Shown piece by piece: positions 7,955-41,423 of a stretch of DNA of 64,000 bases. This stretch comes from Eledone cirrhosa (taxonomy: Eukaryota). The first letter of the stretch is position 1, and every line of letters starts with the position of its first letter. Both the position numbers and the translations under genes were made by a program. The notes beneath the pieces are model-generated. The model did no database searches. It was not told the DNA's origin and saw nothing but the letters and a program-made list of their open reading frames with translations. The stretch covers positions 163,804,001 to 163,868,000 of the forward strand of contig OZ024743.1 of assembly GCA_964016885.1 (NCBI GenBank), read 5' to 3'.

Positions 7955-9264
7955 TAATATAGGCGTAACTCTATGCTGCAAAGCATGGCATACGACCCTC
8001 TACCAATACTGCCAAAAGCAACATATAATATATCACAGATACCTCTTAGAATTTGTTACCCTGACAAGGGTCACAATAAATTCCCACCCTTCTTTATAAC
8101 AAAATAGCTTTTGAATAAAACACTATTAACGAATCGCACACAGATACACATGATAAGCCATTTGAACTTATAGAGTCCCACACAGACAACATGTTGCCTA
8201 CAAATGGTTTGAACACATATCCATGACACTAATAATTTAACAATTGGAAGATAATTTCAACTTTATTAACATTGAAGTATACTTATTAACATATTAGGTA
8301 TTTTAACTATAATTATATTAACTGTAAGTAATTTAGTACTGCTGTTGCAATTGGATACACATAGCCACTTACTTAAAATAAAATGAATGTACAACGATCG
8401 GATTACAGTCACTACCTAGACCGTCCCATCAATCCTCAAGCATTGATTGGTCAACTACCTATAAAACCTATCTCCCACCCACACAGGTAATACCACTTGG
8501 CACAAAATGAAGTAATCCATTGCATAACAATTCAGATTCCATAAGCTAAGAATTTTTTTGCTGTATTGAAACACGTGTTACAATTATTAATAATTATTTA
8601 TAAATGAAATATTGAATATCAACATCTCTGCCTCGTAATTTTTTTTTAACTTATGTTTAATATACATATATATATATTTATGTGTGTATGTTTGTATATA
8701 TATATATACATATATACATACATATATATACACACACACACACATATATATATATAAATGTAAGTATGGGTTATATCGAATAATAATAATATTCGATTCG
8801 TTTGCAATCATCAAGAGGAAGTGTGAGTGTACTTGAAATTAACAGTAATTATTTAAAAACTCAAATGAAAGGAATAGCTGTTAAAACAGTCGAATGCTGT
8901 AAATGACAATAACATGTAAGTCAGGTAAAAATACTCCTGAGGACAGAAATCAGTGACTAGTAGTTGGTAAAGAGAAAGGTAAAGTTGTGAGGTGAGTGCC
9001 AGGCAGATAAAACAAAGATGTTTGTGAGAGGGGTGTGTTGGCACTAACTAGTGACAAGTGATGAGTAAATAAGAAAGAAAGAAAGCAAGACAAATGGAGA
9101 TTAGGGTTACAATAAGGGTCAAGATTAAAGTTATAAATGATACAAAAATAACAAATGCATCTGACCTCATCCACTTTCAATCTGACCTGCAGATTTTGCA
9201 CAAATTAATTGAGAACCACAATGTTTTTATGCCAGCTCATGCAACAGAAAATAAAGATTTCTGC

Positions 9265-9815
9265 TGTTTATTTGTTAATTGTCAAAGTTCTTTCGTCACA
9301 CATTCTGTGAGTACTTTGTTACTTTGTGTCTCTTTGTTCTGTCTTACACCATCTTGTCTTTATGAGCTGTGCACGTGTTACATCCATGTTTGTGTGTGTT
9401 TTTCCTCTCTCTCTACTCTCCTTCTTGTCACTAATTAGTTGTTATCCTAATTTTTGTATTCTATGTGGGTGTGTGTGGTAGGGGAGGGGGTCTGTCAATG
9501 TATTTTATTAGTTTTGTTCTTGTGTCTTTATATTGTCCTTAGACACTATGTTGTGAGGTTGTTAATATTGCATGTGTGCTTTCTATTTGATGCATCTGTT
9601 CCGTGTATAGATATCTACACACCAAACAGATGCAATGCTCTGACAGATTACAAAAGTTACAAACATAAATGAACTCTGACCAAAATTAAGCAGAAAGCAC
9701 AACCCTACAACATAGTGTCTAAGTACAATATAAAAACACATAAAACTGGTGTAAGACAGAACAAAGAGGAGGCAGAATGTGTGACAAAAGAGCTTTGATA
9801 ATTAACAACTAAACA
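9265..9815. mobile_element. Foldback/MITE-like element with nested inverted repeats
   Basis: TTGTTAATTGTCAAAGTTCTTTCGTCACACATTCTG vs CAGAATGTGTGACAAAAGAGCTTTGATAATTAACAA; TCTTTGTTCTGTCTTACACC vs GGTGTAAGACAGAACAAAGA; AGACACTATGTTG vs CAACATAGTGTCT. Confidence 0.7.
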
Positions 9816-9989
9816 AACATCCAGTTATTAAACTAACCAATGGAAAATTATAATAATAAATTGAAGCTCAACTGGTGCATATGTTTTTATTAGCAGCATG
9901 ACCCAGCCAAAGTGTGACAATATCTGTTTCAAGACACGTTTTCACTTCAACAATCTTCCACAAATACAAAAACAAAGTGTGCGTGTGTA

Positions 9990-11345
9990 TCATCATCATA
10001 GTTTTTATGTCCACTTTTCTATGCTTGCATGGGTTGGATGGGTCCTTTTCAGTACAGTATCTCTCCACATGTCACTTTGCTTCATCAACCTCTCTGTGAG
10101 TCTCAGTGATTTGAGGTCAGCTCTCACAACCTCTGCCCAGGTCATTTTTGGTCTACCTCTACTGTGGCCTCCTTCCACTGGCATTTCTTCACCCAACGAT
10201 CATTGTCCATGTGCATCACATGTCCAAACCAACACAGTCTTCTCTCCTGCACATTATTTTGGATTCTTCTTCAATCCAGCTTCTCCCTCAGTTCATCCAA
10301 GCTCTGCCTTTCTCTTACACTTACATTGCACATCCAACGAAACATGGCTGCTTCATTTCTCTCCAGTCTATGCATGTCTTCTGCAGTCACAGCCCATGTT
10401 TCACTACTATGCAGCATTTCACTTTACACACAGGCGACATACAGTTGTCCCTTTGTACAAAGGGAGAAACCTTTTGACAACAACAGTTGGAGTAGCTATC
10501 TGAATTTTTTCCATCCTATCCTTATTCTAGCTATTATGCTCTCAGTGCACCCTCTTCCATTGCTAATTACGTTGCCTAGATAGTAGAAGTTACCAACCAC
10601 TTCTATGGGTCCTTCCTGTGACTGGAATAGGCTAACATTACTACTTATCTTCCACTTGGTTACTCCTGTGCTTCCTCTATAAACAGTCTTCCCTTCCTAT
10701 TAACTTATTCATTATCTCACTTCATCTCTTGTGTACCCAAGATTTAGATTGTGTACATTGTATGGAGTTTATGCCTACTCCCTTTCTACATATTGAGCAG
10801 GGCCACTTCCCTGAAGGAATCAGGGTCCTATCTTCTCTCCTACTCACTAGCACTTTAATTTTGGCTAAGTTTACTCTTAGATCTCTTGATTCTAAATTTT
10901 GTTTCCATAGTCGGAACTTATTTTCTCGGTCTTTAATGGATTTGGCTATACGGACCAAATCATTTGAATAGAGAAGTTGCCATGGGCAGCCTGTCTTAAA
11001 CTCCTGTTATAACTTGGAGAACTATAATGAATAGTAGTGGGATAAGAATCAAACGTTGATGAACTATAACTTGTACCTTGAATTCCTCACTAAACTAATT
11101 TCCTACTGTCACTTTGCTGACAATTCTTCTGTACATAATTTGCACTCCTCTCACCAATCATTCTTCCACTCCTAAGGACCACCAGATAATCGAGGAGCTC
11201 TGTCAAAGGCTTTTTCTAGGTCAACAAAAGCTAGGTATAGTGGCTCATTTTGGGCTAAGAACTTCTCTTGTAGTTGCTTCACTAAAAAGATGTCTGTATG
11301 GAATGAAACCAAACTGCATCTCATCTAATTTGACTCTTTATGTTA
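9990..11345 (-). mobile_element. Decayed RTE LINE 3' half with (GAT)n tail
   Basis: Minus-strand pieces RVNLAKIKVL...KWPCSICRKGVGINSIQCTQ, GRPKMTWAEVVRADL; same family as the copy at 45.8-50.2 kb. Confidence 0.9.
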
Positions 11346-11357
11346 TATTTATATATA

Positions 11358-11395
11358 CTAGCAGAAAAACCGCCCTTCGGGTGGTTTTCTGCTGG
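11358..11395 (-). mobile_element. Helitron-like 3' terminus (hairpin + CTAG)
   Basis: Minus strand reads CCAGCAGAAAACCACCC-GAA-GGGCGGTTTTTCTG-CTAG-T: GC hairpin just upstream of CTAG followed by T. Confidence 0.55.
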
Positions 11396-11474
11396 CATTT
11401 GTAGTGAGCGTATTGATTTTATACACAAATATATATGCTTATAGATATATGTAAATTGAAAAGTAAATTGACAA

Positions 11475-39556: not shown

Positions 39557-39584
39557 TATATATATCATCATTTTCATCATCATT

Positions 39585-39910
39585 TCATTTTACGTCCGCT
39601 TTTTCCCTGCTTGCAAGGGTGGGACGGGAACTGATTCTGGGTTGATTTCTACAGCTGGATGCCCTTCCTAACACCAACCTCATTTACAGTGAGTGCTGGG
39701 TGCTTTTTTGCCGTGGCACCTCCCCGACCACTTTGCAGTGGAATGATAGGGACCCCAGTCCTTATCATCTCGTTTCTACAGCTGAGTAAACTGAAGCAAT
39801 GTGAAATAAAGTATCTTGCTCAAGGAAACAACACATCACCCGGTCTGAGAATTGAACTCACAACCTTTCGATTGCAAGGCCAATGCTCTAACCACTAAGT
39901 CATATGCCTC
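39585..39910 (-). mobile_element. Full-length tRNA/CORE-like/RTE-tailed SINE
   Basis: Reverse complement of 45412-45740 with few differences. Confidence 0.88.
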
Positions 39911-40183
39911 TCTCTCTCTCTCTCTCTCTCTCTCTCTCTCTCTATATATATATATATATATATATATATATATATATATATATATATATATATATATATA
40001 TATATAAAAATACATTATCGGAGAAAGGTTTTTTGCGATACCCCGGCCAAATTCCAACTCACTCAACAAACATTAGGAAATAAGTGAGTATATTCCTAAT
40101 TAAACGTTCGGGGTGCTAACTAAATGTATTGTGTGGAAAATTGGTTGTATTATTTCTTATGAGACATATCGAATATATCTCTT

Positions 40184-40307
40184 CCCAGACAGACGTCTCG
40201 TTTCATAAGATTCCTACAATTTAGGTGAAATTATACCAATTTATGTAGGAGCTTGTATAAGATCAACAGATATATATTCAAGTGGGCTATTATAATTCTT
40301 CAGTGGG
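40184..40307 (-). ncRNA. Hammerhead-like motif with long stem II insertion
   Basis: CCCA-CTGAAGA-(~90 nt incl. TCCTACA/TGTAGGA hairpin)-GAAA-C(G)AGACGTCTG-TC-TGGG; stem I CCCA/TGGG, palindromic stem III; base of stem II is weak. Confidence 0.5.
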
Positions 40308-41276
40308 TGCCCAATAATACTAATATTGATAATCTAACCAATATCAGTATTTAGCGATAATCACCATCAGTGTCTGAGGTATCTGTCAGGTTGCTACTCC
40401 AGCAGTTCTAAAGAAATACTCAAACTGATTAAAAAATGAGGAAGTATATTACCGCCAAAAAAACAATACATGCGCAGGACAATGAATTCTAAAAGGAATT
40501 CAGGCCACGTGCTAGAACTCAATTGGAACTTGAAAAAAATCTATGTGTTTACGTTTGATGACACATATATATATATATATATATAAAAAAGAAGAAATTA
40601 AAAGATGGTTAAAAAAGTTCCATGTATTTTATTATGTGCATTTCAAAAACAAATATCATCCTGGGACGATATTTTCATTCGCATCAGATAAAATAGGGAG
40701 ACATGATATGATGCTTAAAAAACACTTGTGAACAAGGTAGTGTCTAGTCAATATATGATAAATAAATTTAAAAGGATATAGAAGATTGGAAAAAAAGGGG
40801 GAAGGAAAAGGAAAAAAGAAGGAGAGGATGATGGAGGAAAAGTATAAGGAAGGATGAGAGAGAAAGAGAGATAAACATTTAAACTGAAAAATGCTGTCAC
40901 CATTGAAAAATAACTGAATAACGGTTGTAAATTTATAAATAAATTAAAAATTGATGAGGTTTATGATTGATGATGTTTATGATTACAGATATAGAAATTA
41001 AGTATACTATTTATTTAGGGTTTATATACTAAAGGATTTATTAAGAGGTGCGAAAATGATTTATTAATTTACTTATCCGATATTTGCATTGCTTTATTGT
41101 TCTACAATAAAACTCACCTCCTACATATATATATATAGATAATCAAATGAAAAAGATATATATATATAGAGAGAGAGAGAGAAAGAGCCATATATCGCAC
41201 AAGAAACACGGTATATTGTATATATACCAAATATATATTCTATAGAAGAATATGTACACAGGTGGAATCATAAGAG

Positions 41277-41423
41277 AAACGTTATAGCGCTATTTCATAC
41301 CTGGAAAGTGTAGCTCAAAATCAATCTAGATCATCAAAATAATGAATCAATATAATCGATAATCGAAGACAAACTATCGATTATGAATAAACCACATGAG
41401 ACTCAGGTACTCTTCAGAGGTCT
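41277..41423 (-). ncRNA. Hammerhead-like motif with a 100-nt loop II
   Basis: AGACCT-CTGAAGA-GTACCTG-(100 nt)-CAGGTAT-GAAA-TAGCGCTA-TA-ACGTTT. Confidence 0.65.

What the first reader, a model, noticed from the sequence alone, without database searches (positions are those of the whole stretch)
8560..41423. Multiple hammerhead motifs, mostly unrelated in sequence, point 3' into TA-rich microsatellites
Seen: hammerhead cores or remnants at 19053-19116(-), 25316-25363(+), 25564-25634(-), 30991-31055(-), 40184-40307(-) and 41277-41423(-), plus a half-motif GAAA-CACGTG-TTA at ~8568(+). Apart from the 19 kb/31 kb pair, their stems differ in sequence. Each lies ~40-200 nt upstream of a (TA)n-rich tract, usually with a palindromic stem III. 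Inference: several Penelope-like or retrozyme-like families share (TA)n as target or primer, so the abundant TA tracts act as sinks for ribozyme-terminated retroelements and could seed introns with self-cleaving sites. This is the best candidate for an undescribed system in the window.
Basis: partly seen in the sequence, partly recalled or inferred. Interest (0 to 1): 0.75.

Follow-up and report, generated by a model that had tools for sequence, protein, structure and literature searches.

The report
Penelope ribozyme ends in TA repeats
The hammerhead motifs are real: they mark the ends of Penelope-type jumping genes and of short protein-less repeats that sit inside TA microsatellites with the same end pattern and are likely copied by a Penelope enzyme, a kind of system already described in animals.

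Summary
Observation confirmed; it is a known kind of system. All seven motifs belong to repeat families of this 3.0-Gb animal genome (likely an octopod), and the family versions have type I hammerhead anatomy; most window copies are decayed. In a systematic 1-Mb sample, 82 strict motifs were found against 0-1 for each of nine decoy cores, and 36 of 47 terminal motifs had (TA)5+ within 250 nt downstream (background 0.28), with no upstream excess. Craig et al. 2021 already list a Hydra family with hammerhead and (TA)n preference in Octopus. Three other families (41-, 40-, 25.6-kb motifs) close into ORF-less units of about 0.6, 0.7 and 0.9-1.4 kb that share part of the Penelope footprint: retrozyme-like passengers. 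Two of these carry long stem II domains (95 and 122 nt). Cleavage, expression, circles and intron effects are untested. This scan found the same system several times elsewhere in this genome.

The parts
30861..35222 (-). Family A: Hydra-clade Penelope-like element, 4.36 kb, 5'-truncated, with inverted 5' arm; (TA)28 on both sides
   Evidence: copies 94-99% identical elsewhere
32889..35015 (-). Uninterrupted 708-codon frame (P0001): telomerase-like RT, CxCx5C linker, GIY-YIG-type nuclease. Only 32889-34952 is true ORF (residues 57-743 of the L256 frame); the first ~56 residues are replaced by the inverted arm
30861..31218 (-). 3' pseudo-LTR of A with intact type I hammerhead (C3 31047, cleavage site 30999) and ~84-nt tail
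34955..35222 (+).
   Evidence: (98.9% over 276 nt)
19004..19138 (-). 5'-truncated end of a sister family of A (84% to A, 85-89% to a copy in L258); base of stem II broken
25317..25447 (+). Family B short end with Hydra-style hammerhead (C3 25321), decayed here; long-end form with ~55-nt tail; parent element not found
25512..26310 (-). Family C, 5'-truncated copy of an ORF-less 0.9-1.4 kb unit; hammerhead C3 25630; shares the TA tract 25470-25511 tail to tail with B
40007..40560 (-). Family D, 5'-truncated copy of an ORF-less ~700-nt unit; hammerhead with 95-nt stem II domain (C3 40303); base of stem II lost in this copy; TA on both sides
41140..41478 (-). Family E, 5'-truncated copy of an ORF-less 570-600-nt unit; hammerhead with 114-122-nt stem II domain (C3 41417); stem I has a mismatch in this copy
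8505..8640 (+). Family F remnant: 3' half (GAAA at 8568, palindromic stem III) of an old family whose other copies carry the 5' core about 90 nt upstream
   Evidence: full core pattern in 6 of 25 loci
35640..36029 (+). Family G pseudo-LTR with hammerhead (C3 35658) running into the first codons of a PLE ORF; inverted arm at 35222-35444. A relative (L293, 75-83% identical) continues into a broken RT + Cx4CxxC linker + GIY-YIG ORF of Neptune/Nematis type
40597..40711 (-). Decayed hammerhead end (core CTGATGC, C3 ~40687) of a further family, 90% to a sample motif; its TA tract holds the D insertion
9278..9840 (.). Two remnants of family G hammerheads in opposite orientation (9278-9310 -, 9764-9840 +)

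Best explanation
The motifs are type I hammerhead sequences in the terminal repeats of several repeat families that sit inside (TA)n tracts: at least two families of Penelope-like retrotransposons (one Hydra-clade) and at least three ORF-less units that are likely copied by a Penelope enzyme. Shown: motif anatomy, copy numbers, 3' bias to TA, the Hydra ORF, fixed 3' ends, inverted 5' arms, 5' truncation, closure of C, D and E into units without an ORF. Inferred mechanism: a more-than-unit transcript is bound by the PLE protein; the GIY-YIG domain nicks TA-rich DNA on both strands; reverse transcription starts at two fixed internal sites 3' of the ribozyme, giving a long end with a 55-85-nt tail and a short end; early stops leave mostly ribozyme-bearing 3' stubs. 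That explains why unrelated ribozymes point 3' into TA at family-specific distances. The ribozymes would cleave weakly, as dimers or with protein help, to release unit-length or circular RNA.
For: Hydra diagnostics in the protein: RWR/RWK, invariant DK(T/S), CxCx5C, no CCHH, CxxC and CxH; model pLDDT 83.6 with telomerase RTs as the four best folds. In L256 the ribozyme end plus tail runs on into the 742-aa ORF, start codon 235 nt after C3. Family A: 28 of 30 loci end in (TA)4+ at two fixed points ~84 nt apart; in 7 of 7 loci with both arms matched, one has the tail and one not. TA after the family end: E 23 of 25, D 24 of 25, B 18 of 25, C 20 of 24, F 15 of 25; inverted 5' arm: A 11 of 30, B 13 of 25, E 7 of 25, C 6 of 24. 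Closure: E 570-600 nt, D ~700 nt (8 of 25 D loci begin inside the previous unit's 3' end), C 899 nt in L262 and 1411 nt in L263, longest stop-free frame 74-115 aa. Family majority sequences fold with all core bases free within 1.6-3.5 kcal/mol of the minimum. Two internal start sites, both-strand nicking at AT-rich DNA and protein-assisted cleavage are shown in vitro for an anole PLE (PMC11167929).
Against: No cleavage or RNA was observed. No ORF-less family was tied to a particular PLE by sequence: B-F gave no match to Hydra or Neptune/Penelope-type proteins in the window. D and F rarely show inverted arms (1 of 25 each) and D has one dominant end, so the footprint is not uniform. B and F were not closed and have no known parent. 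D closure by tail rests on one tail-bearing locus (L074). The top 40 hits were chosen by likeness to queries that reach the 3' end, which favours complete ends. The two-end test matched few E and B loci (18 and 12 of 25 unmatched). Clade placement is by motifs, not a tree with reference PLEs.
Confidence: 0.85

Rival explanations
1. All families are only truncated or internally deleted copies of autonomous PLEs; C, D and E are deletion derivatives copied from linear tandem transcripts, with no circular RNA and no need for cleavage.
For: A, its sister and G are PLE ends. C units differ by large deletions (899 vs 1411 nt). In vitro, ribozyme mutants of an anole PLE insert normally and no RNA ends were seen at the site (PMC11167929); 8 of 9 Xenopus dimers did not cleave (10.64898/2026.07.22.740005).
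Against: D and E close at a narrow length in several loci with no coding remnant found; cores are kept in 24 of 25 D and 21 of 25 C loci and stems pair across families. This rival differs from the best explanation only in origin and in the role of circles.
Confidence: 0.3
2. The motifs are chance matches in AT-rich repeat DNA and lie near TA only because TA tracts are everywhere.
For: 2397 (TA)5+ tracts per Mb; no Rfam hit; window copies fail the strict descriptor; RT 'YADD' codons mimic the core; the 25914(-) look-alike is not conserved in its family.
Against: 82 vs 0-1 decoys; downstream but not upstream excess; family-fixed distances such as 58, 58, 59, 58, 58.
Confidence: 0.01
3. The TA tract is made by the element (telomerase-like tailing or slippage), not a pre-existing target.
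For: PLE RT is telomerase-like; young family A ends carry long pure TA runs; only 6 of 17 single-arm E and 2 of 7 single-arm A copies have TA at the 5' break.
Against: 17 of 24 single-arm D copies have TA at a variable 5' break (background 0.11); elements stack in one tract from both sides (B/C, A/G, 40687/D).
Confidence: 0.07

Closest known systems
Hydra clade of Penelope-like elements, incl. Hydra-1_Obim (Craig et al. 2021, PMC8557442; sections 3, 11, 12, passages and supplement part 2 of 59 read)
   Same: Single ORF RT + C-terminal GIY-YIG, DKT, RWK-like, CxCx5C, no CCHH; hammerhead near the 3' end; (TA)n insertion; inverted 5' arm and tail; already reported in Octopus.
   Different: Unit about 4.3 kb (1.8-kb AT-rich 3' UTR) vs 'generally <3 kb'; tail ~84 nt vs 30-40 bp; hammerhead sequence differs from the one listed for Hydra-1_Obim, so a different family.
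Animal non-LTR retrozymes (Cervera & de la Pena 2020, PMC7229834, passages read; Li et al. bioRxiv 10.64898/2026.07.22.740005, parts 1-3 of 5 read)
   Same: ORF-less units with one type I hammerhead, head-to-tail closure, proposed PLE dependence; consensus lengths 51-972 bp and many monomers reported.
   Different: C, D, E were seen as dispersed 5'-truncated or partial-tandem copies, not long arrays; stem II domains of 95-122 nt in D and E; insertion in TA with PLE-type ends, which I did not see described in the parts read; circles untested.
PLE minimal/variant hammerheads (Cervera & de la Pena 2014, PMC4209133, parts 1-2 of 4 read)
   Same: Thousands of heterogeneous, mostly single motifs per genome from truncated PLEs, opposite-strand pairs 100-700 bp apart, palindromic helix III, predicted dimer action.
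   Different: No TA bias or long stem II insert mentioned in the parts read.
Poseidon PAc mechanism (Frangieh et al. 2024, PMC11167929, parts 1-2 of 4 read)
   Same: Two internal RT start sites define the tail; both strands of AT-rich DNA nicked.
   Different: Other clade; there the start sites lie in the ORF, here in the 5' UTR of family A.

Membership tests
Hydra-clade PLE (family A) | Single ORF with telomerase-like RT | tested here: met
   742-aa frame in L256; best folds TERT, E 2.5e-9. Pfam and PDB sequence searches gave nothing significant.
Hydra-clade PLE (family A) | C-terminal GIY-YIG nuclease without CCHH, with CxxC and CxH | tested here: met
   VVY...YVG, CDLC, CRH in alignment A1; Pfam GIY-YIG only weak in 1 of 17 members (E 0.012)
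Hydra-clade PLE (family A) | DKT, RWK and CxCx5C linker; no N-terminal EN | tested here: met
   SDKT, RWR, CNCRNKSNC against the definition
Hydra-clade PLE (family A) | Hammerhead in pLTR and (TA)n insertion | tested here: met
Hydra-clade PLE (family A) | Short length (generally <3 kb) | tested here: not met
   about 4.3 kb, long 3' UTR shared by other copies; the paper gives this as typical, not strict
Hydra-clade PLE (family A) | Groups with named Hydra RTs in a tree | not tested
   reference proteins were not available as tool sequences
Type I hammerhead ribozyme | CUGANGA, GAAA, NUH in type I order with stems I-III | tested here: met
   A copies and majority sequences of B-E; F by alignment; window copies of A', B, C, D, E have one or more damaged stems
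Type I hammerhead ribozyme | Site-specific self-cleavage | not testable with these tools
   needs in vitro transcription
Non-LTR retrozyme (C, D, E) | No ORF; head-to-tail unit with one hammerhead | tested here: met
Non-LTR retrozyme (C, D, E) | Tandem arrays with two or more complete ribozyme units | tested here: inconclusive
   only partial tandems in the 25 loci per family; true arrays (310 and ~420 nt) belong to other families
Non-LTR retrozyme (C, D, E) | Expressed as linear and circular unit-length RNA | not testable with these tools
   needs RNA data
Neptune/Nematis PLE (family G) | CX2-5CxxC linker and CCHH nuclease after RT | tested here: inconclusive
   motifs visible in the broken ORF of a 75-83% identical relative; the two clades were not told apart
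Naiad PLE | N-terminal nuclease, no canonical hammerhead | tested here: not met
   nuclease is C-terminal, hammerhead present

The most novel reading that the evidence does not exclude
Families D and E (and perhaps C, F) are large, dispersed retrozymes whose 0.6-0.7-kb circular RNAs carry hammerheads with 95-122-nt structured stem II domains and are copied in trans by Hydra or Neptune PLE proteins into TA tracts; their PLE-type ends are direct genomic evidence for the proposed PLE-retrozyme partnership, and young family A gives a ready enzyme to test it.
Probability: 0.45. Interest if true: 0.58.

Novelty: new member of a known kind. Interest (0 to 1): 0.36.

Why it matters
It explains the pattern without a new system, and shows scale: about 80 strict hammerheads per Mb in the sample, roughly 150,000-240,000 in the genome if extrapolated, nearly all invisible to Rfam in this window. 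The useful part is testability: a young Hydra family (94-99% identical copies, a full 742-aa ORF in L256) lives beside ORF-less ribozyme units with similar ends, so one can ask directly whether a PLE protein copies retrozyme RNA and whether cleavage or circles are needed. The long stem II ribozymes would extend the known size range of PLE-linked hammerheads if they cleave; I found no paper on them in searches.

Tried and rejected
Rfam scan: no hammerhead, only microsatellite-driven miRNA hits. Strict descriptor on the window: no true motif. Naiad, my first guess for the ORF: rejected, nuclease is C-terminal. Pfam and PDB sequence searches: nothing significant for the Hydra protein. Idea that family C spread with a 4-nt deletion in stem II: rejected; the supposed intact form has 0 matches and the family folds canonically. 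The 25914(-) look-alike: not conserved among 5 aligned C copies; 30657(-) and 37877(-) cores matched no sampled family and were not followed. Iterative extension of families timed out with no output; replaced by tail-to-head tests. Search with the C tail returned an unrelated flanking repeat. Linking B to a nearby Hydra fragment in L105/L261: wrong orientation, not linked. Sequence look-up of family D in earlier findings: nothing. Supplements of the bioRxiv preprint and 58 of 59 parts of the Craig supplement were not read and may list related families or long-loop ribozymes.
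Full report
Setting. The window is G000:C4:163804001-163868000 of a 3.0-Gb genome. At least 65% is repeat by comparison with the loci held. The best named relative of the main protein is from Argonauta (40%), so an octopod is likely; this is inference.

The observation. Rfam sees none, and a strict type I descriptor passes none of the window copies, so I tested them as families. Each is a genome-wide repeat. 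Majority sequences of families B-E, and the window copies of A, fold with stems I and II formed and the core free, within 1.6-4 kcal/mol of the minimum; window copies at 19108, 25321, 25630, 40303 and 41417 have damaged stems. The half-motif at 8568 is the 3' half of an old family whose other copies keep the 5' core about 90 nt upstream (full pattern in 6 of 25 loci).

Chance and orientation. In 100 evenly spaced 10-kb stretches the descriptor found 82 motifs; nine decoy cores found 0-1 each. Two were RT YADD codons and 30 were inner units of tandem arrays; 50 terminal motifs in 29 loci and 16 families remained, 47 far enough from an edge. (TA)5+ lay within 250 nt downstream in 36 of 47 (null 0.277, p 5e-12) and upstream in 16 of 47 (null 0.264, p 0.15); with (TA)8+ the figures were 27 and 13 of 47.

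The 31047(-) motif has an inverted twin at 35126(+) (98.9% over 276 nt). Between them lies a 708-codon open frame, and (TA)28 flanks both ends. The protein has 354 relatives among 7994 scored candidates; its model (pLDDT 83.6) matches telomerase RTs best. It carries the motifs that define the Hydra clade in Craig et al. 2021: DKT, RW(R/K), CxCx5C, no CCHH, CxxC and CxH. A tandem copy (L256) shows the full 742-aa ORF starting 235 nt after the ribozyme core; the window copy lacks the first ~56 residues, so it is probably not able to move itself. Family A ends at two fixed points ~84 nt apart, both followed by TA in 28 of 30 loci; where both arms were matched, one had the tail and one not in 7 of 7. 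The 19-kb motif is a sister family. A further motif at 35658(+) is related to the terminal repeat of a Neptune/Nematis-type PLE seen in L293, and a decayed one lies at ~40687(-).

The ORF-less families. For E (41 kb) the sequence after the 3' end of some copies is the sequence upstream of the ribozyme in others, closing a 570-600-nt unit; D (40 kb) closes at ~700 nt (8 of 25 loci start inside the previous unit's end); C (25.6 kb) repeats at 899 nt in L262 and 1411 nt in L263, with no stop-free frame above 115 aa. None matched the PLE proteins tried. They share TA ends (20-24 of 24-25 loci) and, for E and C, inverted 5' arms (7 of 25, 6 of 24); D has only 1 of 25. B shows two ends and 13 of 25 inverted arms but no parent or closure; F is unresolved. 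D and E ribozymes have stem II domains of 95 and 122 nt. TA is a target rather than only a tail for D: 17 of 24 single-arm copies have TA at the 5' break against 0.11 background; E (6 of 17) and A (2 of 7) are weaker.

How it likely works. By analogy with the anole PLE studied in vitro (PMC11167929), the PLE protein binds RNA 3' of the ribozyme, nicks TA-rich DNA on both strands and starts copying at two internal sites; early stops leave short ribozyme-bearing stubs, often as inverted pairs. The Zn-binding linker is the proposed TA guide (PMC8557442). ORF-less units would borrow this enzyme. Cleavage is predicted to be weak and dimer- or protein-dependent (PMC4209133). All of this paragraph is inferred; no RNA or activity was seen.

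Comparison with what is known. Craig et al. list Hydra-1_Obim from Octopus bimaculoides with (TA)n preference and a hammerhead about 100 nt from its end, and (TA)n for nearly all Hydra families. Scattered, heterogeneous hammerheads from truncated PLEs were described in 2014, retrozymes in 2020, and their PLE origin argued in a 2026 preprint. Searches for retrozymes in cephalopods, long stem II inserts, and non-autonomous PLEs in TA returned no paper on those points beyond these. Earlier reports of this scan reached the same reading on other parts of this genome; they are not independent support.

Verdict. Real, well supported, and a new set of members of known kinds. What remains of interest is the PLE-type footprint on large ORF-less units and their long-stem-II ribozymes, both testable. 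Interest 0.36.

Noticed in passing
L206 (11 units of ~310 nt), L211, L235 (units of ~420 nt with a TA tract between motifs): True tandem hammerhead arrays, classical retrozyme form, in the random sample.
   Followed up: no
window 27444-28572 (-): Broken DNA-transposon ORF; motif HIKLGLMKQFVKAL...EQGERFHQD recalled as Chapaev3-like (from memory, no call names it; Pfam gave nothing for one piece).
   Followed up: no
window 16742-18344 (+), 47517-50098 (+), 56246-59535: Non-LTR RT remnants (Pfam RVT_1); their YADD codons read CTGATGA/CTGACGA and mimic the hammerhead core.
   Followed up: partly
window 12780-16136: Minisatellite of 40-nt units, over 80 copies in two blocks at 92-93%.
   Followed up: no
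window 25193-25317, 37621-37732, 39785-39909, 45413-45537, 54733-54851: tRNA-like SINE heads (weak Rfam tRNA hit at 45420); families B and D abut them.
   Followed up: no
window 31218-32889: 1.7-kb very AT-rich 3' UTR of the Hydra element (GC 21%) with internal duplications, shared by other copies at ~94%.
   Followed up: partly
window 25445-25512, 35222-35280, 40560-40600: Different families stack in one TA tract, tail to tail or nested; the same clustering is seen in L258, L262, L293.
   Followed up: partly
window 60621-61074: Two-copy 227-nt tandem repeat at 93%.
   Followed up: no
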